Shown: positions 19,037 to 30,131 of the stretch, one piece after another
Numbering within the stretch: position 1 is the stretch's first letter
How the letters are laid out: every line of letters starts with the position of its first letter
Origin: a bacterium
GTDB taxonomy: Bacteria > Sysuimicrobiota > Sysuimicrobiia > Sysuimicrobiales > Humicultoraceae
Length of the DNA: 64,000 bases
Reading direction: 5' to 3'
NCBI GenBank assembly: GCA_031082185.1
Contig: JAVHLI010000004.1
Span: forward strand, 11,608-75,607
Notes under the pieces: model-generated
Told to the model about the DNA's origin: nothing
Seen by the model: only the letters and a program-made list of their open reading frames with translations
The model's database searches: none
Program-made: the position numbers and the translations under genes

Positions 19037-19693
19037 TCACACGTTCAGCTCCCGCAGCTCGCCGGTCACCATGTAGATGACCCGCTCACCGATGTTGGTG
19101 ATATGGTCGGCGGCGCGCTCCAGGTTCTGCGCCACCAGCAGCAGCTCCAGCGCCCGCGGGATGGTCCGGGGATCGCTGAGCATGTACGTCAGCAGCTCTC
19201 TGAAGACCTGGCTGCGCAGGGCGTCCACCTCGTCATCTCGCTTCGCCATGGCCTCGGCCAGGGCCGTATCTCTTCGCAGGTACGCGTCCATGGCCTCTCG
19301 GAGCATCTGCTGCACGAGTTCCTCCATGCGCGGGATGTCAATGAGCGGTTTGAGGTGCGGCTGGCCGGCCAGCCGCTTCACCGACTTGGAGATGCCCTCG
19401 GCGTGGTCGGCCAGCCGCTCCAGGTCGATGGTAATGACGAAGGCGGCCGCGATGGTCCGCAGGTCTGACGCCATGGGCTGCTGCCGGGCCAACAGGCGCA
19501 TGCAGCGGTCCTCCAGCTCCAGGTGCAGCGCGTCGATCCGGTCGTCATCCCGGACGATCCGCTCGGCCCAGTCGGCGTCCAGCGTCCGCAGCGCCTCCAC
19601 CGACGCGTGGATCGCCTCCCCAGCCATCGTCGCCATGCGGACGACGTCGGCCTGGAGCCCCTCCAACTCCCTCAGGAACAGCTCGCGAGTCAA
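19037..19693 (-). CDS. phoU: Phosphate transport system regulator PhoU.
   Basis: 218 aa with two PhoU repeats. Confidence 0.9.
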   Translation of the reverse strand: MTRELFLRELEGLQADVVRMATMAGEAIHASVEALRTLDADWAERIVRDDDRIDALHLELEDRCMRLLARQQPMASDLRTIAAAFVITIDLERLADHAEGISKSVKRLAGQPHLKPLIDIPRMEELVQQMLREAMDAYLRRDTALAEAMAKRDDEVDALRSQVFRELLTYMLSDPRTIPRALELLLVAQNLERAADHITNIGERVIYMVTGELRELNV

Positions 19694-19759
19694 CCTCGGC
19701 TCCCTCCCCCCGATGTTCTGGCCACGCCTGGGAACTCCTGGCAGGGTGCCGGCCCGGGC

Positions 19760-20593
19760 TCACCCGAACCGGCCGGTAATGTAGTCCTCGGTCCGGCGAT
19801 CACCAGGCCGCGTGAAGATCTGGTCCGTGGCACCAACCTCGACCAGCTCGCCGTCCAACAGGAACCCGGTCACATCCGAGACCCGGGCGGCCTGCTGCAT
19901 GTTGTGGGTCACGATGACAATGGTGAGCTGCCGGGCCAGCTCGCGGGCCAGCTCCTCGATGCGCAGCGTGGCTGCCGGGTCCAGGGCCGAGGCCGGCTCG
20001 TCCATCAGCAGTACCTCTGGCGAGACGGCGAGCGCGCGGGCGATGCACAGCCGCTGCTGCTGGCCGCCCGAGAGGCTGGTGCCGGGCCGCCCCAGGCGGT
20101 CCTTCACCTCATCCCACAAGGCCGCGGCGCGCAGGCTGCGCTCCACTGTCTCGTCCAGCACACGCCGGTCCCGCTCGCCGGCCAGCCGCAGCCCGGCCGC
20201 GGCGTTGTCGTAGATGCTCATGGTGGGGAAGGGGTTGGGCTTCTGGAACACCATGCCGACGCGGCGGCGGACCCGGACCGGGTCGACGCCCGGCGCGTAG
20301 ATATCGACGCCGTCCATCAGTACCCTCCCGCTGGAGCGCGCGCCGGGCACCAGCTCGTGCATGCGGTTCAGGCAGCGCAGGAAGGTGGACTTACCGCATC
20401 CCGACGGCCCGATGATGGCCGTCACCCGGCGAGGGGCGATGGTCAGGGAGACGCCACGCAGAACGTGGTGGCGGTCGAACCAGGCGTGGACGCCCTGTGC
20501 CTCGATCCCGGCGGCGTGGTCGATCAAGATCCCGGCGTCCGCCGTCACGGCGACCCCGGCCTGCATGGCGTCTGGCATCGGACCCTCCATCAT
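19760..20593 (-). CDS. pstB: Phosphate ABC transporter ATPase.
   Basis: Walker [10 protein letters not shown], plus LSGGQQQRL and the Walker B. Confidence 0.9.
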
Positions 20594-20609
20594 CGCAGCA
20601 TTCGCTCCG

Positions 20610-21455
20610 TTACCGAAGTTTCACATGGCGGGCCGCCACCGCCCGGGCGGCGATGTTGACGCTCAGCACAATGGTCATCAGGACCAGGGCGCCGGCCCAC
20701 GCCTGCCGGTGCCAGTCCTCGAAGGGCGAGACGGCGTAGGCGAAGATCTGCAGGGGCAGGGCGGCGATCGGTTGCAGCAGGTCCCAGTTCCAGAACCGGT
20801 TCCCGAACGCGGTGAAGAGCAACGGCGCGGTCTCGCCCGCGATGCGGGCCAGCCCCACCATGATGCCGGTCACGATCCCGCCGGCGGCGGTGGGCAACAC
20901 CACCCGAAGCAGCGTTCGCCACTGGGGGATACCCAGCGCCAGTGACGCCTCGCGAACGCTCTGGGGGACCAGCCGCACTATCTCCTCGGTGGTCCGCATC
21001 ACCGTCGGGATCAGCATGATCCCCAGCGCTACGCCGCCGGAGGCGGCGCTGAAATGGCGCAGGGGCAGCACCAGAATGGTGTAGGCAAACAGGCCCATCA
21101 CGATGCTGGGCACCCCGTTCATCACGTCGGCCATCAGCCGCACGGCACCGGCGAGCCGGCTGTTGGGGCATTCCGCCAGGAACGTCCCGCCCAGCACGCC
21201 GACCGGCATCCCGAGCAGCGCGGCCAGGCCCACCAGCACCAGCGTGCCGGAGATGGCGTTGGCCATCCCGCCGCCGGGCTCGCCGGCGGCCCCGGGCAGG
21301 TGGGTGAAGAATTCCAGGTTCAGGGCGCCCAGGCCGGTGCGGGCCAGGAAGAAGAGGATGAGGAACAGCGGGACCAGCGCGGCCACGGTGCACAGGAATG
21401 TCACCCCGGCCATCAGGCGGTCGGTCCAGCGGCGGCGCAGATAGGAGCGGGCCAT
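20610..21455 (-). CDS. pstA: Phosphate ABC transporter permease PstA.
   Basis: 281 aa, TM-rich, and positioned within the pst operon. Confidence 0.9.
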
Positions 21456-21458
21456 CGG

Positions 21459-22388
21459 CTACTCCCGAATGAGGCCCGGGCCCCGCGCCACGCGGGCCAC
21501 CAGCAGGCGGGCCAGGATGTTGACCGTCAGCGTGACCAGGAAGAGGACGAGCCCGGCGTAGATGATCGCGGCCACGTACAGGTCGTCGGTGGCCTCGGCG
21601 AACTCGTTGGCGATCACCGCCGCGATGGTGTAGCCCGGCGCGAGAAGCGACGCCCTGATCTGGGGCACGTTGCCGATGACCATGGTGACCGCCATGGTCT
21701 CGCCCAAGGCCCGGGCCAGAGCCAGGAAGATCGCGCCCACGATCCCTGAGCGGGCATACGGGATGACCGCGGTCCGGGTGGTCTCCCAGACGGTAGCTCC
21801 CAGGGAGAGCGCGGCCTCACGCTGCGAAGTCGGCACCGCCCGCATTACCTCGGTGCTGGCGGCGATGATGAAGGGCACGACCATGATCGCCAGGATCAGC
21901 CCGGCGGCCAGCATCCCAATGCCCAGCGGCGGCCCCTCGAACAGCGGCAGGAAGCCCAACGTCGCCTTCAGCGGCGGCGAGAGCGTCGTCCGCACCCAGG
22001 GGACCAGCACAAAGATCCCCCACAGCCCGTAGACCACGCTGGGGATGGCGGCCAGCAGATCGAGCAGGAATCCGACCGGCCGGCGCAGCCAGCCCGGGGC
22101 CAGCTCGGACAGGAAGATGGCGACCCCCAGACCCAGCGGCACGGCCAGGGCCAGCGCGACGGCCGAGGACACCAGCGTGCCGTAGACGAAGGGCAGGGCG
22201 CCGAAGTCGCCGGCGACAGGGTCCCAGGTCGAGGTGGCGAAGAACGCCGGGCCGAACTTCCGGATCGCCGGCCAGGCACCGACGGTCATCGCGGCCAGCA
22301 TGGCGGCCATGATTACCGGCACCACGCCGGCCATCGCTGCCAGCAGCCGCGCGAACAGCCGGTCGCCCATATGCGCGACGTGCCGCAC
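21459..22388 (-). CDS. pstC: Phosphate ABC transporter permease PstC.
   Basis: 309 aa, TM-rich, and positioned within the pst operon. Confidence 0.9.
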   Translation of the reverse strand: MRHVAHMGDRLFARLLAAMAGVVPVIMAAMLAAMTVGAWPAIRKFGPAFFATSTWDPVAGDFGALPFVYGTLVSSAVALALAVPLGLGVAIFLSELAPGWLRRPVGFLLDLLAAIPSVVYGLWGIFVLVPWVRTTLSPPLKATLGFLPLFEGPPLGIGMLAAGLILAIMVVPFIIAASTEVMRAVPTSQREAALSLGATVWETTRTAVIPYARSGIVGAIFLALARALGETMAVTMVIGNVPQIRASLLAPGYTIAAVIANEFAEATDDLYVAAIIYAGLVLFLVTLTVNILARLLVARVARGPGLIRE

Positions 22389-22396
22389 GGGAGCCG

Positions 22397-23455
22397 TCAG
22401 GGCAGCAACGCCTTCCCCTGCGCGGTGACCGTCCGCAGCGTGCCCTCGACGCGCGCCACCAGGCTCTTGGGCAGCTGCGCGTAGTGCAGCGGCGGCGCGT
22501 ACTTCTGGCCGTCATGGACCGCCCACCGCAGGAAGTCCACCAGGGCCTTGCCCTTGACCGGGTCGGGCTGCTCGCCGTAGATCAGGATCCACGTAAACCC
22601 GGCGATGGGGTAGACGTCCCGGCCCTCGGGATCGGTGAAGAAGATCCGGTAGTCCTCGGGGATTGCCCGCAGCGCGCCATCCATCGCCCGGGTGGTGCTG
22701 GACAGCAAGGGCCGGATGAACTGACCCGCGCGGTTGCGCACATTGCCAACGGGCATCCGGTTGGTCAGCACGTAGGCCAGCTCCACGTAGCCCAGCGCGT
22801 TCGGCATCTGCCGCACGAGGCCGGCGACACCCTCGTTGCCCTTGCCGCCGATCCCGACCGGCCAGTTCACCGACGTACCCTCGCCTACCTTCCTCCGCCA
22901 GTCGGGGCTGACCTTGCTCAGGTAGTTCACCCAGATGGCCGTGGTCCCGGACCCGTCCGAGCGGCGCACCACGATGATGTCGGCGGCCGGCAGCTTCGCC
23001 TCGGGGTTGTCCTTGAGCAGCCGGGGATCGTTCCACTTCGTGATCTTGCCCAGGAAGATGTCGGCCAGGACGCCGGGGGCAAAGTTGAGCCCGGTCCCCA
23101 CACCGGGAATGTTGTACATCGGTACCACCGCGCCGGCCACCATGGGGATGTGCAGCGGGCGGCCGCCGGCCTGGCGAATCTGCGCGTCGGTCATCGGGCC
23201 GTCGGTGGCGCCGAAGTCCACGGTCTTCGCGATGAATTGGCGGATCCCGCCGCCCGAGCCGATGGATTGATAGTTGATGCGCACGCCACGCTCGGCATCG
23301 TAGACCTGCGACCACTTGGAGTAGAGCGGGAACGGAAATGTCGCCCCTGCACCGGTGAGCGTCACCGGCTGCTGGGCGGGGGTGGTCCCCGCCGCGCCGA
23401 GCACCACGGCGGCGCTCAGGGCAAGCGCAGCGAACCACGATAGCGGATTCAACAC
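22397..23455 (-). CDS. pstS: Phosphate-binding protein PstS.
   Basis: A signal peptide followed by TLTGAGATFPFPLYSKW. GTG start; AAGGAGG sits upstream. Confidence 0.9.
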   Translation of the reverse strand: MLNPLSWFAALALSAAVVLGAAGTTPAQQPVTLTGAGATFPFPLYSKWSQVYDAERGVRINYQSIGSGGGIRQFIAKTVDFGATDGPMTDAQIRQAGGRPLHIPMVAGAVVPMYNIPGVGTGLNFAPGVLADIFLGKITKWNDPRLLKDNPEAKLPAADIIVVRRSDGSGTTAIWVNYLSKVSPDWRRKVGEGTSVNWPVGIGGKGNEGVAGLVRQMPNALGYVELAYVLTNRMPVGNVRNRAGQFIRPLLSSTTRAMDGALRAIPEDYRIFFTDPEGRDVYPIAGFTWILIYGEQPDPVKGKALVDFLRWAVHDGQKYAPPLHYAQLPKSLVARVEGTLRTVTAQGKALLP

Positions 23456-26437: not shown

Positions 26438-27760
26438 CTAAAAAGCCGTAAGGTAACTGTCAACTTCCCACGGGTGTACGCGGGTGATGTACTCCCGCCA
26501 CTCCAGTCGCTTGGCCCGTACAAGATGATCTACGATGTGGCTGCCGAGCGTCTCAGTGATGAGCTCGTCGGCCAGGAGTTCCCCCACCGCCTCGTCGAGG
26601 TTGCGGGGAAGCACCCGGATGCCCAACTGATCCAGCTCGTCTTCCGTCATCGCGTAGAGGTTCCGGTTGAGCGGCGGGCCGGCGTCCAGCCCTCTTGTGA
26701 TGCCGTCGAGGCCGGCGGCCAGCATCACCGCCATGGCCAGGTAGGGGTTGCAGGAGGGATCCGGCATGCGCAGCTCCACGCGCGTGCCGTCCCCGCGCGA
26801 CACCGGGACGCGAACCAGCGGCGACCGGTTGCGCTCGGCCCAGGCGATGTAAACCGGTGCCTCGTACCCCGGCACCAGGCGCTTGTAGGAGTTGACCAGG
26901 GGGTTGGTCACCGCGCACATGCCCCGCGCGTGGGTCAGCAGCCCAGCGACGTATTGCAGGCAGGTCGCGCTGAGCTGGTGGGTGCCCTCAGGGTCGTAGA
27001 AGGCGTTCTTCCCCTCGCGGTACAGCGACTGGTGGGTGTGCATCCCCGACCCCGCGATGCCGGTAATGGGCTTCGGCATGAAGGTCGCGTGAAGCCCGTG
27101 GCGCCTGGCGATCGTCCGCACCACCAGGCGGAACGTGGCGATGTTGTCGGCCGCGCGCAGCACGTCGGCGTACTTGAAGTCAATCTCGTGCTGGCCGTTG
27201 GCCACCTCGTGGTGCCCGGCCTCGACCTCGAAGCCCATGGCTGAGAGCGCGGTCACCATGTCTGCCCGCGCCTCTTCACCCTTGTCCACGGGCGCCATGT
27301 CGAAGTAGCCGGCCCGGTCGTGCGTCGTCAGCTTGGGCTGGCCGTCGGCGTCGGTGGGAAAAAGGAAGAACTCGCACTCCGGCCCGGCCATCATGGTGAA
27401 CCCACTGCGCGCGGCAGCGGCGACGACGCGACGCAGCACGGAGCGGGGATCGCCCGCGAACGGCTCCCGCTCGGCGGTATAGACGTCGCAAATCAGGCGC
27501 GCCGTGGCCCCCTCCCGGTTCTTCCACGGAAAGAGCGCGAAAGTCTCGCGATCCGGTATGAGATACATGTCCGACTCCTCTATGCGCACGAAGCCCTCGA
27601 TAGAGGAACCGTCAAACAGGATCTCGTTGTCGAGCGCCCTCTCGAGCTGCTCCACCGGGATCTCCACGTTCTTTAGGGTACCCAGGATGTCCGTGAACTG
27701 CAGGCGGACAAACCTCACACCCCACGCGTGGGCCTGCTCAAGCACCTGTTCTTTCGTCAT
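26438..27760 (-). CDS. glnA: Glutamine synthetase type I.
   Basis: Starts at Met42 (MTKEQVLEQAHAWGVRFVRLQFTDILG) with an AGGAGGAG RBS. GS signatures are present throughout. Confidence 0.9.
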   Translation of the reverse strand: MTKEQVLEQAHAWGVRFVRLQFTDILGTLKNVEIPVEQLERALDNEILFDGSSIEGFVRIEESDMYLIPDRETFALFPWKNREGATARLICDVYTAEREPFAGDPRSVLRRVVAAAARSGFTMMAGPECEFFLFPTDADGQPKLTTHDRAGYFDMAPVDKGEEARADMVTALSAMGFEVEAGHHEVANGQHEIDFKYADVLRAADNIATFRLVVRTIARRHGLHATFMPKPITGIAGSGMHTHQSLYREGKNAFYDPEGTHQLSATCLQYVAGLLTHARGMCAVTNPLVNSYKRLVPGYEAPVYIAWAERNRSPLVRVPVSRGDGTRVELRMPDPSCNPYLAMAVMLAAGLDGITRGLDAGPPLNRNLYAMTEDELDQLGIRVLPRNLDEAVGELLADELITETLGSHIVDHLVRAKRLEWREYITRVHPWEVDSYLTAF

Positions 27761-29474
27761 CACCGCTCCTCCTAAGTGCCGTGGTCTGAACCTCGAACCC
27801 CATCTCGGCCGCCCGTGCCACCAGGTACTCGATGTTCTCGGTCTTGGTGCGGTCCCCCAGGCTGATGCGCTGGGTGCACCCATCGAGCGCGATGATCACA
27901 GTCTCTGCCAGGCAGGCAGGCACAAGGCCCGGACCGTAGCCCAGGTTGATATTCCAACTAGGATTCCCGGGAAGGCGCACAACTCCTCCTGGGATGACCT
28001 CGGCTCCCGGCATTGCCTTCACCGAATCGTCCACATCATAGGGCCTTCCCAGGTCTATGATGAGGCAGCCGTCCCTCACGTGTTCGGGGAAGATGACCGG
28101 GCGCGGCGAGGAGGTGGCGGTGAAGATGGCGTCGGCCTCTCGCAGCAACCCGTAGTCGGTCGTCGCCTCGATGCGCGCGCCGGGGTGGCGGCGCGCCAGC
28201 AACTCCCGCGACCGCTCCAGCCGTGACGCATCGGTCCCCAGCATGACCAGGCGCCCCACGTGCTCCACCACCTGGCGGCAGATTCCGAAGCCCACCACGC
28301 CGTTCGCCCCGACCACCGCGATCGTGGCGTCTGCCGGATCAATGCCGCGGGAGCGAAGCCGGTCGAGGATCACGGGCACCGCCATCTTCACGGTGCCGGC
28401 GGTATAGGCGCCGCCGTTGGTGACCGCGATCCCGGACCTTGCCGCCACCTCGACGCCCTTGTTCCCGACAACGGACCAGTAGGCGCCCAGCCCCAGAACC
28501 GTGGCGCCCAGATTCTCGGCAAGGTGGGCGGCCTGCACCGCCCGCCGCACCGCCAGACGGGGATGCGCTCGGATCTGGTCGGGCAGCAGCGGCACCCCAA
28601 TCAGGTAGACGCGGGCCCGCCGACCGTCGGCGGTGATGACCGGGTGGATATCGTCAACCTTCATGGGCCGCACGAAGCGCGCGACCCGGCGCACCAAGGC
28701 GTCGGAGATGATCCCGCGCCGGCGCAGGGGCATCAGCCAGCGGAACCTGCCGGCCTCCCAGTTGTCGTCAACGGTCATCGGGTGGACCAGGAATGCGCAC
28801 ACGGCATCGTCGCCCAACAGCAGCGGCAGCGGAAGGCGTTCGCCCATCCTGGGCTCGGTACCGTCGGCTATCCGCGCCAGGTGTTCCTTGTGGTTCCACA
28901 GGCTCACTATCGCAAGCGCCAGACCCAGCGCCAGGTACGGCGCACGGCCGCCCAGCGCCCACAGGCCCGCGGGCAGGCTGGCCGTGGCAAGCACCGTCGC
29001 CAGCGAGAGATAGCCCCAGCGCCGCCCCGCGATCCTCGGCACTCCCAGCGTCACCAACGCCACCACCGCGGGGATCGCCAGCGCCGGCCAGGGCACCGCG
29101 CCCAGGGCGCCCAGGCCGAGAAGCGCGCCCGCGGTTACGACAACGCCCTTCACCCGCACCGCTGCCGGCGGCGCGAGAAACCAGAAGGGCGAGTAGGCGT
29201 GGCCCGCTACAACCGCGGCCGCGGAGGCGGCCAGGGTCCAGTCGCCGCCGCCCAGCAACCGGGCGGGGACAACCGCGAGCCCTCCTTTGAGCAGATCAAG
29301 CGCGGCGGCCAGCGCGAGGGTATGGGCTCCGGCCGCGGCGGCCACCGTCCCCAGGCCGAGGTTGTGCGCGGAGTAGCGGCGCAGATCCACACCGCGCAGG
29401 AGCCGGCCCACGGCGTATCCGGTGGGAAGGCCTCCCAGAGCGAAGGCGAGGACGGTGGCTACAATGCTCAGCAC
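27738..29474 (-). CDS. plsY: Fusion protein: glycerol-3-phosphate acyltransferase PlsY (N-terminal, about 200 aa, multi-TM) plus an acyl-ACP reductase (AAR)-like Rossmann domain (C-terminal, about 350 aa).
   Basis: PlsY end motif: HKEHLARIADGTEPRMG. The C-terminal domain aligns to cyanobacterial AAR: VVGANGVVGFGICRQV, GGAYTAGTV, and a conserved Cys in LVPACLAET (compare AAR FACFAEA). Confidence 0.7.
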   Translation of the reverse strand: MLSIVATVLAFALGGLPTGYAVGRLLRGVDLRRYSAHNLGLGTVAAAAGAHTLALAAALDLLKGGLAVVPARLLGGGDWTLAASAAAVVAGHAYSPFWFLAPPAAVRVKGVVVTAGALLGLGALGAVPWPALAIPAVVALVTLGVPRIAGRRWGYLSLATVLATASLPAGLWALGGRAPYLALGLALAIVSLWNHKEHLARIADGTEPRMGERLPLPLLLGDDAVCAFLVHPMTVDDNWEAGRFRWLMPLRRRGIISDALVRRVARFVRPMKVDDIHPVITADGRRARVYLIGVPLLPDQIRAHPRLAVRRAVQAAHLAENLGATVLGLGAYWSVVGNKGVEVAARSGIAVTNGGAYTAGTVKMAVPVILDRLRSRGIDPADATIAVVGANGVVGFGICRQVVEHVGRLVMLGTDASRLERSRELLARRHPGARIEATTDYGLLREADAIFTATSSPRPVIFPEHVRDGCLIIDLGRPYDVDDSVKAMPGAEVIPGGVVRLPGNPSWNINLGYGPGLVPACLAETVIIALDGCTQRISLGDRTKTENIEYLVARAAEMGFEVQTTALRRSGDDERTGA

Positions 29475-29498
29475 AGGGGTAACTTGGTCCCGAGCAAT

Positions 29499-30131
29499 CT
29501 ACTTGGTCCCGAACAGGCGATCGCCCGCATCTCCCAACCCGGGCACGATGTAGCCCTTGTCGTTGAGGTGGCTGTCCACCTCGGCGGTGAAGATCTCAAC
29601 GTCCGGGTGGGCCTCCTGGACCTTCTTGATCCCTTCTGGCGAGGAGATGATTGCCATAACCTTGATGTTGTGGCATCCGTGGGCCTTGAGGGTGTTGATC
29701 GCCTCTACGGTTGATCCGCCGGTGGCCAGCATGGGATCGAGAATCATCGCCTCCCGCTCGGCGATGTCTGCGGGCAGCTTAACGAAGTAGCTGACCGGCT
29801 GCAGGGTTTCGTGGTCTCGGTACATGCCTATGTGTCCGACCCGCGCGGTGGGAATGAGCCGGGTGATCGCGGTCTCCATCACCAGCCCTGCCCGCAGGAT
29901 CGGAATCACCGCCAGCTCCTGCCCGGCGATGGACCAACCTGTGGTCTTGGCCAGCGGCGTCTCGACCTCGATCTCGCGTACCGGGTGCGATCGGGTTGCC
30001 TCATAGGCCATCAACGCGGCCAGTTCCTCGGTGATCTCGCGGAACTCCTTGTGGCCGGTGCGCTTGTCTCGCAGGATCGTGAGCTTGTGCCGGATGAGCG
30101 GATGGTCGAACACGTGCACGGTAGACATCAC
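29499..30131 (-). CDS. upp: Uracil phosphoribosyltransferase.
   Basis: 210 aa containing ILRAGL and DPMLATGGS. Confidence 0.9.
   Translation of the reverse strand: MMSTVHVFDHPLIRHKLTILRDKRTGHKEFREITEELAALMAYEATRSHPVREIEVETPLAKTTGWSIAGQELAVIPILRAGLVMETAITRLIPTARVGHIGMYRDHETLQPVSYFVKLPADIAEREAMILDPMLATGGSTVEAINTLKAHGCHNIKVMAIISSPEGIKKVQEAHPDVEIFTAEVDSHLNDKGYIVPGLGDAGDRLFGTK

What the first reader, a model, noticed from the sequence alone, without database searches (positions are those of the whole stretch)
27738..29474. PlsY acyltransferase fused to an acyl-ACP-reductase-like (AAR family) domain that keeps the catalytic cysteine.
The first ~200 aa are a membrane PlsY (acyl-phosphate:glycerol-3-phosphate acyltransferase), ending HKEHLARIADGTEPRMG. 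The remaining ~350 aa align with cyanobacterial acyl-ACP reductase. The Rossmann motif VVGANGVVGFGICRQV aligns with VVGATGDIGSAVCRWL. The catalytic Cys region LVPACLAET aligns with FACFAEA. The C-terminus GDRTKTENIEYLVARAAEMGF aligns with GRNQITIEKMEAIGEASVRHGF. AAR forms an acyl-thioester from acyl-ACP. Fused to PlsY, this domain could hand acyl groups from acyl-ACP to PlsY and functionally replace PlsX, since there is no plsX in this window. This would be an unconventional entry into phospholipid synthesis. The gene also overlaps glnA by 23 nt.
Basis: partly seen in the sequence, partly recalled or inferred. Interest (0 to 1): 0.6.

Follow-up and report, generated by a model that had tools for sequence, protein, structure and literature searches.

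The report
PlsY–acyl-reductase fusion membrane enzyme
This is a real, widely conserved but uncharacterised gene that joins a membrane domain derived from the lipid acyltransferase PlsY to a complete fatty-acyl reductase domain; in this organism the glycerol-phosphate site of the PlsY part is broken, so it more likely makes or handles a fatty-aldehyde-type lipid precursor than replaces PlsX.

Summary
ORF 27738-29474 (-) encodes 578 aa: a 7-helix PlsY-type domain, a highly conserved linker, and a complete AAR-type domain. The AAR part keeps the catalytic Cys (C521) and the GxxGxxG NAD(P)H motif. The gene overlaps glnA by 23 nt.

It is not an assembly artefact. Full-length homologues occur in at least 259 species representatives: CSP1-3/'Armatimonadota' MAGs, Thermus, Meiothermus, Oceanithermus and Deinococcus isolates, Thermaerobacter and Actinomycetota MAGs. 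The AlphaFold model is confident as one unit (pTM 0.90).

The 'replaces PlsX and feeds G3P acylation' reading is weak for this protein. Its clade has lost three of the four G3P phosphate-clamp residues (S35A, R45A, N180H) plus T41, and scores 69 bits against the PlsY equivalog cut-off of 137. Older branches of the fusion family still carry a canonical PlsY.

My best reading is a membrane-docked acyl-thioester reductase whose PlsY-derived half is the lipid exit or hand-over module. It probably feeds a non-canonical membrane lipid.

I could not test whether plsX is present elsewhere in the genome. I found no paper on this fusion. It is an interesting but unresolved new variant of known enzyme kinds.

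The parts
27738..29474 (-). Whole fusion ORF, 578 aa, GTG start, TGA stop
   Evidence: full-length homologues
28899..29474 (-). PlsY-type 7-helix membrane domain (aa 1-192)
   Evidence: Pfam PF02660 E 2e-21; phmmer to 5xj5 E 1.8e-12; Foldseek 5xj5 TM(target) 0.77
29337..29378 (-). PlsY motif 1 region (aa 33-46, RYSAHNLGLGTVAA). N38 (=N37) is kept. S35 is A36, T41 is G42 and R45 is A46.
   Evidence: residue roles from PMC5700162
29199..29201 (-). H92 (= aaPlsY His92, side chain of the acyl-phosphate 'phosphate hole'), invariant
29145..29156 (-). Loop 3 / motif 2 equivalent, R107-V-K109-G. The G102-to-R change marks the whole main family. K104 is kept as K109.
28806..28898 (-). PlsY motif 3 plus conserved linker (aa 193-223, WNHKEHLARIADGTEPRMGERLP...). 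H195 = His177. H198 replaces Asn180.
   Evidence: (74% mean pairwise identity, the most conserved segment)
27780..28805 (-). Complete AAR-type (acyl-thioester reductase) domain, aa 224-565
   Evidence: Foldseek 6jzu E 1.3e-19, TM(target) 0.77-0.79
28707..28748 (-). Segment RFRWLMPLRRRGII (aa 243-256), at the place of AAR fragment Fr-I (acyl-tunnel exit and partner interface). It is about 6 residues longer in PlsY-fused proteins than in non-fused relatives and is conserved.
   Evidence: the role of AAR Fr-I is from PMC7089970
28413..28421 (-). T352-N353-G354, equivalent to the T-T-G loop that contacts the catalytic Cys in AAR and TAD; invariant
   Evidence: TAD paper
28290..28310 (-). Rossmann dinucleotide motif G389-A-N-G392-V-V-G395
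27912..27914 (-). Catalytic cysteine C521 (= AAR Cys294, PigE Cys296) in PACLAE; invariant in 113 sequences
27738..27779 (-). Non-conserved C-terminal tail (pLDDT below 50 for aa 571-578). It carries the glnA Shine-Dalgarno site (AGGAGG, 27768-27773) and the glnA start ATG (27758-27760), giving a 23-nt overlap.

Best explanation
The gene encodes one rigid two-domain membrane enzyme from an old fusion family.

The C-terminal half is a complete AAR-type acyl-thioester reductase. By analogy with AAR and PigE, it takes a fatty acyl group from a thioester donor (acyl-ACP or acyl-CoA) onto Cys521 and reduces it with NAD(P)H to a fatty aldehyde. This step is inferred from conserved catalytic features.

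The N-terminal half descends from the acyl-phosphate:G3P acyltransferase PlsY. In this clade it has lost the G3P phosphate clamp. It keeps the fold, the oxyanion Asn, the phosphate-hole His and a family-specific Arg. It therefore no longer works as a canonical G3P acyltransferase.

Its most likely role is as the membrane-embedded partner that receives the lipid leaving the reductase's acyl tunnel. ADO does this for AAR, and the aminotransferase domain does it for PigE. The PlsY-derived half would then either release the lipid into the bilayer or join it to a still unknown phosphorylated head-group precursor.

The product would feed a non-canonical core membrane lipid, not the PlsX/PlsY route to lysophosphatidic acid.

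Shown: the architecture, its conservation, the loss of clamp residues, and the phyletic spread. Inferred: reductase activity, the acyl donor, the direction of hand-over, and the end product.
For: 1. The AAR half is complete and its catalytic equipment is invariant across 113 homologues: C521, the T-N-G loop, GxxGxxG, the NADPH-loop equivalent (F451 A453 T454 ... H465) and H231, the equivalent of AAR His7. The fold matches AAR, and also the NAD-binding TAD domain.

2. Characterised superfamily members form an acyl-Cys intermediate and hand the product to a partner (PMC7089970; PMC8341465).

3. The window clade ('type C') has A/A/K/H at the G3P clamp positions S35/R45/K104/N180 and G at T41. N37 and H92 are invariant, and H198 is itself at least 95% conserved. 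N180H and the clamp alanine mutants cripple Aquifex PlsY. TIGR00023 scores 69 bits against a cut-off of 137.

4. In type C the PlsY-like part is more relaxed than the AAR part (51% versus 70% mean pairwise identity). In type A the figures are 60% versus 64%.

5. AlphaFold gives pLDDT 92.2 and pTM 0.90 for the whole chain, and the linker is the most conserved segment.

6. PlsY-fused AAR-like domains share an extended, conserved segment at the AAR tunnel-exit/partner-interface position. The main family keeps R310 and R311 where AAR has the ADO-binding R79 and K80.

7. The family is present throughout the Deinococcota sampled, and in at least one Deinococcaceae genome a further PlsY-like gene lies nearby. 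Major Deinococcota lipids carry a fatty-aldehyde-derived alkylamine chain whose enzymes are unidentified (PMC9636437).

8. Neighbouring genes are housekeeping: upp and glnA here, and infC and rplT in Thermaceae.
Against: No biochemical data exist for any member.

The invariant phosphate-hole His and the added Arg argue that a phosphate-bearing ligand (acyl-phosphate or inorganic phosphate) is still bound. A pure 'exit module' role does not explain this.

Older branches keep a fully canonical PlsY: type A, and the P0175 clade, where P0175 overlaps gpsA. The ancestral role of the AAR-like half was therefore tied to genuine G3P acylation, which fits a PlsX-like supply function.

The related TAD domain binds NAD but was not shown to reduce its substrate, so NAD(P) binding does not prove reduction.

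No aldehyde-consuming partner such as ADO or an aminotransferase is conserved next to the gene.

The lipids of the window's phylum are unknown.
Confidence: 0.4

Rival explanations
1. PlsX bypass. The AAR-like half takes acyl from acyl-ACP onto Cys521. Phosphate then attacks the thioester, as in the second half-reaction of GAPDH, to give acyl-phosphate. That acyl-phosphate is used by the fused PlsY half or, where that half is degenerate, by a separate PlsY.
For: The fusion partner is the only known acyl-phosphate-binding membrane fold, and its phosphate-hole His92 and Asn37 are invariant. Ancestral-like members carry a canonical PlsY: TIGR00023 scores 150.8 bits for P0175 and 135.7 bits for P0095, and P0175 overlaps gpsA. 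The outgroup clade sits in small-gene, ribosome-operon contexts where every gene is probably core. No plsX lies in the window or within +-10 kb of 84 related loci.
Against: The window clade lacks the G3P clamp, so it cannot complete the pathway by itself. The NAD(P)H site and its mobile loop are strictly conserved although this chemistry needs no hydride. The conserved specialised surface is the hydrophobic tunnel exit, a poor path for a charged acyl-phosphate. An AAR-like domain is also fused to a PlsC-type acyltransferase, which needs no acyl-phosphate. plsX is near-universal in bacteria (my own knowledge; not checked for these genomes).
Confidence: 0.17
2. Fatty acyl-phosphate reductase. 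The PlsY-derived half binds membrane acyl-phosphate made by PlsX or a fatty acid kinase. Cys521 attacks it, as in ArgC, Asd and ProA, and NAD(P)H reduces the thioester to an aldehyde.
For: This explains why acyl-phosphate-binding elements stay invariant while G3P-binding residues decay. It keeps the superfamily's reductase chemistry. The superfamily already accepts non-thioester donors, for example GluTR with an ester. There is weak Rossmann similarity to semialdehyde dehydrogenases.
Against: The head group would have to reach Cys521 through the cleft, but the specialised conserved surface is the tunnel exit. No such enzyme is known. The canonical-PlsY members would compete with themselves for substrate.
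Confidence: 0.12
3. The PlsY-derived half is a re-tooled transferase with a new acceptor or donor. One example is joining an aldehyde-derived alkylamine to 3-phosphoglyceroyl phosphate. That would give N-(3-phosphoglyceroyl)alkylamine, a reverse-amide isostere of lysophosphatidic acid. The two halves would then catalyse the first and last steps of one lipid side-pathway.
For: The acceptor pocket changes differently but consistently in each clade. T41E is invariant in Deinococcota, with R45 and N180 kept. N180H is at least 95% conserved in the window clade. Deinococcota make N-glyceroyl-alkylamine phosphoglycolipids by unknown enzymes. A PLD-family gene follows the fusion in 11 Deinococcus loci.
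Against: This is pure inference from residue patterns. No aminotransferase is conserved nearby. The window clade's pocket differs from the Deinococcota one. Such lipids are unknown outside Deinococcota.
Confidence: 0.1
4. An ordinary bifunctional protein. The N-terminal half is still the cell's G3P acyltransferase despite its substitutions, and the AAR-like half acts independently.
For: Databases name it glycerol-3-phosphate acyltransferase. The gene context is housekeeping.
Against: The score is half the equivalog cut-off. Three of four clamp residues are lost, including the near-lethal N180H. The rigid, conserved linker and interface argue for coupling between the halves.
Confidence: 0.08
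5. Assembly or frameshift artefact, or a decaying pseudogene.
For: None found.
Against: The same architecture occurs in at least 259 species representatives, including complete isolate genomes. There are 60 or more invariant columns. The AlphaFold model is confident.
Confidence: 0.01

Closest known systems
PlsY (acyl-phosphate:glycerol-3-phosphate acyltransferase; Aquifex aeolicus structure 5XJ5; TIGR00023, PF02660)
   Same: It has the same 7-helix fold (Foldseek TM 0.77). Asn37, His92, Lys104, His177, the D-x-x-K-G motif and the motif 3 scaffold (W/Y-x-H-x-E...R) are kept.
   Different: S35 is Ala, T41 is Gly, R45 is Ala, N180 is His, G36 is His and G102 is Arg. It scores 69 bits against the 137-bit equivalog cut-off. 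It is fused to a 350-aa soluble domain.
Cyanobacterial acyl-ACP reductase AAR (6JZU; TIGR04058)
   Same: It has the same three-part fold, catalytic Cys, T-x-G loop, Rossmann motif and N-terminal His. R310 and R311 sit at the ADO-binding R79 and K80 positions.
   Different: Sequence identity is only 23-24%, and it scores 61 bits against a cut-off of 450. No ADO gene lies in the window or in the related loci. Tyr247 is replaced by Arg477, which is common in non-cyanobacterial relatives. It is tethered to a membrane domain rather than soluble.
PigE / TamH thioester reductase domains fused to class-III aminotransferases (4PPM; NF053554)
   Same: This is the best-scoring characterised relative of the C-terminal half (E 4.5e-30). 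It is also a natural fusion in which the reductase hands its aldehyde to the fused next enzyme.
   Different: The partner domain here is a PlsY-type membrane protein, not a PLP enzyme. The context is housekeeping, not a pigment gene cluster.
TAD, the AAR-like 'terminal amidation domain' of NRPS/PKS (9E4S-9E56)
   Same: The fold is the same, with an invariant Cys next to bound NAD. It shows that the superfamily may use the acyl-Cys intermediate for chemistry other than simple reduction.
   Different: Identity is 16-17%. TAD is part of megasynthases and is NAD-specific through an Asp that is not conserved here.
PlsX (acyl-ACP:phosphate transacylase; 1VI1; PF02504)
   Different: There is no sequence or fold relationship. 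PlsX uses no covalent Cys intermediate and no nicotinamide cofactor (my own knowledge). No evidence obtained here shows that the fusion replaces it.
ElbD-type multidomain enzymes of myxobacterial ether-lipid synthesis (reductase plus AGPAT domains), recalled from the literature and not checked here
   Same: It is a fusion of a fatty-acyl reductase with a glycerolipid acyltransferase. The AAR-like plus PF01553 protein P0167 found here is the same kind of pairing.
   Different: The reductase family (terminal SDR-type) and the acyltransferase family (PlsC-type) are both different. No link to ether lipids was shown for the present family.

Membership tests
PlsY (TIGR00023 equivalog) | PlsY 7-helix fold / PF02660 domain | tested here: met
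   Pfam E 2e-21; phmmer to 5xj5 E 1.8e-12; Foldseek TM(target) 0.77
PlsY (TIGR00023 equivalog) | Score above the curated equivalog cut-off (137.2 bits) | tested here: not met
   69.1 bits. For comparison, P0175 scores 150.8 and P0095 scores 135.7.
PlsY (TIGR00023 equivalog) | G3P phosphate clamp Ser35, Arg45, Lys104, Asn180, plus the 2-OH binders Ser142 and His177 | tested here: not met
   The window has Ala36, Ala46, Lys109, His198, Thr160 and His195 at these positions. Mutant data are from PMC5700162.
PlsY (TIGR00023 equivalog) | Acyl-phosphate site: His92 side chain, loop 3 phosphate hole, Thr41 hydroxyl, Asn37 oxyanion | tested here: inconclusive
   His92 and Asn37 are invariant. The loop is kept but with G102R. 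Thr41 is Gly.
PlsY (TIGR00023 equivalog) | Catalyses acyl-phosphate + G3P to lysophosphatidic acid | not testable with these tools
   Needs an enzyme assay or complementation.
AAR (long-chain acyl-ACP reductase, TIGR04058) | AAR fold (N-terminal, middle Rossmann and C-terminal parts) | tested here: met
   Foldseek 6jzu E 1.3e-19, TM(target) 0.77-0.79; HMMER alignment over AAR residues 39-338
AAR (long-chain acyl-ACP reductase, TIGR04058) | Catalytic Cys294 and dinucleotide-binding GxxGxxG | tested here: met
   C521 and G389/G392/G395 align and are conserved or invariant in 113 sequences.
AAR (long-chain acyl-ACP reductase, TIGR04058) | Equivalog-level similarity (cut-off 449.7 bits) and pairing with aldehyde-deformylating oxygenase | tested here: not met
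   61.4 bits. No ADO was found in the window or in 84 loci, using a probe verified against 4quw/6jzu_B.
AAR (long-chain acyl-ACP reductase, TIGR04058) | NADPH-dependent reduction of acyl-ACP to fatty aldehyde | not testable with these tools
   Needs an enzyme assay.
AAR-like superfamily (AAR, PigE-N, TAD, GluTR-related) | Cys-centred acyl-enzyme domain with bound NAD(P), often fused or docked to the next enzyme | tested here: met
   Only the 64-kb window and +-10 kb of related loci could be searched, and none holds plsX.
   Clamp residues are lost in the window clade. They are kept in type A and in the P0175 clade.

The most novel reading that the evidence does not exclude
The PlsY-AAR fusion family is the missing entry enzyme for aldehyde-derived 'third chain' membrane lipids, such as the N-glyceroyl-alkylamine phosphoglycolipids of Thermus and Deinococcus, whose biosynthesis has been unknown since their discovery. 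The reductase half would make the fatty aldehyde. The re-tooled PlsY half would catalyse a mirror-image PlsY reaction, joining a lipid amine to a phosphorylated C3 acyl-phosphate. The presence of the fusion in CSP1-3/'Armatimonadota', Thermaerobacter and Actinomycetota would then predict related, undiscovered lipids in those phyla.
Probability: 0.1. Interest if true: 0.85.

Novelty: new variant of a known kind. Interest (0 to 1): 0.55.

Why it matters
PlsY and AAR are both well-studied enzymes, but their fusion has no described function. Databases simply call it 'glycerol-3-phosphate acyltransferase'. That label is probably wrong for at least two large clades, the window clade and all Deinococcota sampled, because their G3P site is dismantled.

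The family is core-like: it sits among housekeeping genes and is universal in the Deinococcota sampled. It occurs in genetically tractable organisms such as Thermus, Deinococcus and Meiothermus.

Two questions therefore become directly testable. First, where do the alkylamine and other aldehyde-derived chains of Deinococcus-Thermus lipids come from? Second, is there a PlsX-independent way to feed PlsY?

Either answer would add a new reaction to bacterial membrane-lipid synthesis. It would also give an example of a PlsY fold evolving a new specificity.

Tried and rejected
1. Artefact or frameshift: rejected.

2. Gene context as a functional clue. I clustered the neighbours of 80 loci. Only lineage-specific housekeeping synteny emerged, with no fab, acpP, rpmF or plsC genes. 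No conserved aminotransferase and no ADO were found. A PLD-family neighbour occurs only in Deinococcus.

3. plsX co-occurrence could not be resolved. tblastn of the window and loci found nothing. The window's proteins are not on record, so the contig could not be extended. The PLSDB protein search gave no Deinococcota record with either PlsX or the fusion. The supplements of the CSP1-3 paper do not list plsX or plsY. Literature searches for plsX in Deinococcus or Thermus were uninformative.

4. I first took the second PlsY-like gene in L074 for a canonical PlsY. It is a divergent PRK14401-type paralogue, so it does not show that Deinococcus has a canonical PlsY.

5. I considered Arg477, at the AAR Tyr247 position, as a phosphate-binding signature. 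I rejected this because Arg is common in non-fused relatives.

6. The afdb50 fold library was unavailable.

7. Literature searches for the fusion itself (PlsY + acyl-ACP reductase; acyl-ACP reductase + Deinococcus) found nothing relevant.

Full report
OBSERVATION. The minus strand of the window carries an uninterrupted ORF at 27738-29474: 578 aa, GTG start. Its codon-position GC profile is typical of coding sequence in this 68% GC window. The long antisense ORFs do not pass that test.

Pfam finds PF02660 (G3P_acyltransf) at aa 9-202 and a Rossmann domain (PF01488) at aa 381-494. NCBIfam finds the N-terminal thioester-reductase part of PigE at aa 271-565 (E 4.5e-30), cyanobacterial acyl-ACP reductase at aa 270-560 (E 9e-17) and PlsY at aa 1-211 (E 4.4e-19). 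All three are far below their equivalog cut-offs. Sequence search of the PDB returns PigE (4ppm), AAR (6jzq/6jzu) and Aquifex PlsY (5xj5).

The stop codon lies 23 nt inside glnA. The glnA ATG at 27760 is preceded by AGGAGG. Upstream, upp ends 24 nt before the GTG start.

NOT AN ARTEFACT, AND WIDESPREAD. More than 120 full-length homologues (570-630 aa, down to 46% identity) exist in public data. In one genome per species, 259 loci encode a relative, nearly all covering residues 1 to about 562. Hosts include:
- MAGs labelled Armatimonadota. The closest named genera, Ca. Fervidifonticultor and Ca. Thermofontivivens, are placed in phylum CSP1-3/Sysuimicrobiota by PMC11604079.
- Bacillota MAGs and Thermaerobacter.
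- Actinomycetota MAGs.
- Deinococcota isolates: Deinococcus, Meiothermus, Oceanithermus and Thermus.

Sources name it 'glycerol-3-phosphate acyltransferase', 'predicted amino acid dehydrogenase' or 'hypothetical protein'. An AlphaFold2 model built on 113 sequences has pLDDT 92.2 and pTM 0.90, so the two halves are predicted as one rigid body. Foldseek matches the C-terminal half to AAR (TM 0.77-0.79) and to the NAD-binding AAR-like TAD domain. It matches the N-terminal half to PlsY (TM 0.77).

THE AAR-LIKE HALF. It spans the whole AAR fold, from the N-terminal (F/L)IHP motif at aa 228-232 to the C-terminal helix. Invariant across 113 homologues are C521, P519-A520, E524, the T352-N353-G354 loop, G389/G392 of the GxxGxxG motif (G395 at least 90%), R418, D474-x-G476-R477-P478 and G496-G497. 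The equivalent of the NADPH-binding mobile loop is also conserved or nearly so (F451, A453, T454, H465).

In the characterised relatives the acyl group is first moved onto this cysteine and then reduced by NAD(P)H. The aldehyde leaves through a hydrophobic tunnel into a docked or fused partner: ADO for AAR, an aminotransferase for PigE, and GSAM for GluTR. TAD shows that NAD binding next to the Cys need not mean simple reduction.

A full HMMER scan of 1.84 billion representatives gives 2387 relatives of this half. The PlsY-fused family stands apart at E below 1e-76. After that come stand-alone proteins of about 350 aa and other fusions: to a PlsC-type acyltransferase (P0167), to class-III aminotransferases (P0163) and to SRPBCC lipid-binding domains (P0145). 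There is also a distant second group of PlsY fusions, P0175, P0181 and P0176.

THE PlsY-LIKE HALF IS NOT CANONICAL HERE. The Aquifex PlsY structures define three sets of residues (PMC5700162):
- A G3P phosphate clamp (Ser35, Arg45, Lys104, Asn180) plus Ser142 and His177 for the 2-OH.
- An acyl-phosphate site: the His92 side chain, the backbone of loop 104-107 and the Thr41 hydroxyl.
- Asn37, which stabilises the oxyanion.

Alanine mutants of the clamp residues lose more than 92% of activity, and N180H almost abolishes it. A direct HMMER alignment and multiple alignments show three kinds of fused PlsY domain.

Type A comprises Actinomycetota and some 'Armatimonadota' MAGs. It keeps every one of these residues and scores 135.7 bits on TIGR00023, against a cut-off of 137.2.

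Type B comprises the Deinococcota. Ser35 becomes Ala, Val or Pro in nearly all sequences. Thr41 is invariably Glu. Lys104 becomes Arg in most sequences. His177 becomes Phe or Tyr in most. Arg45 and Asn180 are mostly kept.

Type C comprises the window clade and the Bacillota MAGs. Ser35 becomes Ala, Pro or Thr. Thr41 most often becomes Gly. Arg45 becomes Ala in the window clade but is retained in the Bacillota MAGs. Asn180 becomes His, and that His is itself at least 95% conserved. The window protein scores only 69 bits.

Across the whole main family, Asn37 (in nearly all sequences), His92 and the D-x-x-K motif are conserved. Gly36 is replaced by His or Tyr in nearly all, and Gly102 by Arg. The outgroup clade (P0175, P0181) is fully canonical: GSGN and GGK motifs, 150.8 bits. 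P0175 overlaps gpsA, as housekeeping plsY genes often do.

A neighbour-joining tree of the AAR-like half, without support values, groups all PlsY-fused domains together. It places type C as sister to type A, with Deinococcota separate. The simplest history is one old fusion to a working PlsY, followed by two independent losses of the G3P site. Within type C the PlsY-like part is less constrained than the AAR-like part (51% versus 70% mean pairwise identity; in type A, 60% versus 64%). Motif 3 plus the linker is the most conserved segment, at 74%.

WHICH FACE MEETS THE MEMBRANE DOMAIN. In AAR, fragment Fr-I (R19-Q29) forms the acyl-tunnel exit and part of the ADO interface, and R79 and K80 are required for ADO binding. 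PlsY-fused AAR-like domains, both the main family and the P0175 clade, have a segment about 6 residues longer and conserved at the Fr-I position (window aa 243-256, RFRWLMPLRRRGII). The main family also keeps R310 and R311 at the R79/K80 position. Non-fused relatives have neither feature. This suggests the PlsY-like domain docks where ADO docks, at the hydrophobic tunnel exit. That is the path of a neutral aldehyde leaving tail-first. It is an unlikely path for a charged acyl-phosphate head group. This step is an inference.

CONTEXT. In the window clade the conserved gene order is prfA-prmC-rpiB-(glyA)-upp-fusion-glnA-dCMP deaminase-DEAD helicase. In Thermaceae it is infC-rplT-small membrane protein-fusion-hexapeptide transferase-SDR. 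In Deinococcus it is fusion-PLD-family protein-ispH-amino acid kinase. No fab, acpP, rpmF or plsC genes, no plsX, no ADO and no conserved aminotransferase lie within 10 kb in any locus or in the 64-kb window. The contexts suggest a constitutive, core function but do not name it.

HOW IT MOST LIKELY WORKS. The most economical reading keeps the known chemistry of the superfamily. An acyl-thioester goes to acyl-S-Cys521, and NAD(P)H reduction gives a fatty aldehyde. The aldehyde is delivered through the tunnel into the PlsY-derived membrane domain. That domain no longer binds G3P in this clade. It either releases the lipid into the bilayer or couples it to an unknown phosphorylated partner held by the retained phosphate hole.

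One suggestive correlation is that the Deinococcota sampled all carry the fusion. Their dominant phospholipids contain a long-chain alkylamine, formally an aminated fatty aldehyde, and the enzymes that make it were still unidentified in 2022. I give this composite model 0.4.

Three alternatives remain open:
It is attractive for the canonical-PlsY branches. For the window protein it is weakened by the lost G3P clamp, the strictly conserved NAD(P)H site, the tunnel-exit interface, and the existence of a PlsC-type fusion that needs no acyl-phosphate.
- A fatty acyl-phosphate reductase (0.12). This would explain why only the acyl-phosphate elements of PlsY survive.
- A re-tooled transferase, for example forming N-(3-phosphoglyceroyl)alkylamine, a reverse-amide isostere of lysophosphatidic acid (0.1).

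LIMITS. I could not establish whether plsX or a canonical plsY exists elsewhere in these genomes. The second PlsY-like gene near the fusion in one Deinococcaceae genome is a divergent PRK14401-type paralogue, not a canonical PlsY. No paper in the searchable library describes this fusion.

COMPARISON AND VERDICT. The protein works with parts of two known families but is a member of neither at equivalog level. It fails the PlsY score cut-off and the G3P-clamp test. It fails the AAR score cut-off and lacks the ADO partner, although it meets the fold and catalytic-Cys/NAD(P) tests of the broader AAR-like superfamily. It is best filed as a new variant of known kinds: an uncharacterised, ancient, widespread PlsY-AAR-like fusion whose database name is probably misleading. 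The finding is real and moderately interesting, because tractable hosts exist for a decisive test. The specific 'PlsX replacement' mechanism is only partly supported.

Noticed in passing
window 29482-29512 (-): The last 12 nt of upp (TCGGGACCAAGT, encoding ...FGTK) are repeated exactly 19 nt further on, after the upp stop and just before the GTG start of the fusion. It looks like a small tandem duplication.
   Followed up: no
window 27738-27773 (-): The glnA Shine-Dalgarno site (AGGAGG, 27768-27773) and ATG (27758-27760) lie inside the 3' end of the fusion gene. This suggests translational coupling or co-transcription of upp, the fusion and glnA.
   Followed up: partly
whole window; loci L013-L022: Relatives are labelled 'Armatimonadota' in NCBI. 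The nearest named genera (Ca. Fervidifonticultor, Ca. Thermofontivivens) are assigned to phylum CSP1-3/Sysuimicrobiota in PMC11604079, so the window probably comes from that phylum or a neighbour of it.
   Followed up: partly
L064:11761-13308 and 10 other Deinococcus loci: A PLD-family (PLDc_2, two HKD motifs) protein with a lipoprotein-like N-terminus directly follows the fusion gene in Deinococcus. It is a candidate phosphatidyl-transferase of the same lipid pathway.
   Followed up: partly
L074:20499-21074 (-): A second, stand-alone PlsY-like gene lies about 9 kb from the fusion in a Deinococcaceae genome. It belongs to NF010978/PRK14401 (243 bits) and lacks Lys104, Asn37 and motif 3, so it is another non-canonical PlsY paralogue.
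   Followed up: partly
L082:9792-11546 (protein P0167): An AAR-like domain is fused to a PlsC-type (PF01553) acyltransferase, next to grpE-dnaK-dnaJ. This is a second, independent pairing of the reductase type with a glycerolipid acyltransferase.
   Followed up: partly
L081:10001-12710; L083; L084: A distant fusion clade (P0175, P0181, P0176) has a fully canonical PlsY half. It sits in 45-49% GC contigs with small genes and ribosomal operons. P0175 overlaps gpsA by 11 nt.
   Followed up: partly
window 19037-23455 (-): A complete pstS-pstC-pstA-pstB-phoU phosphate-uptake cluster, identified by eye from translations.
   Followed up: no
NZ_AP027143.1 243903-244988 (Methylocystis iwaonis plasmid): The only plasmid-borne relatives of the AAR-like half sit beside or within a class-III aminotransferase gene, a PigE-like arrangement.
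   Followed up: no
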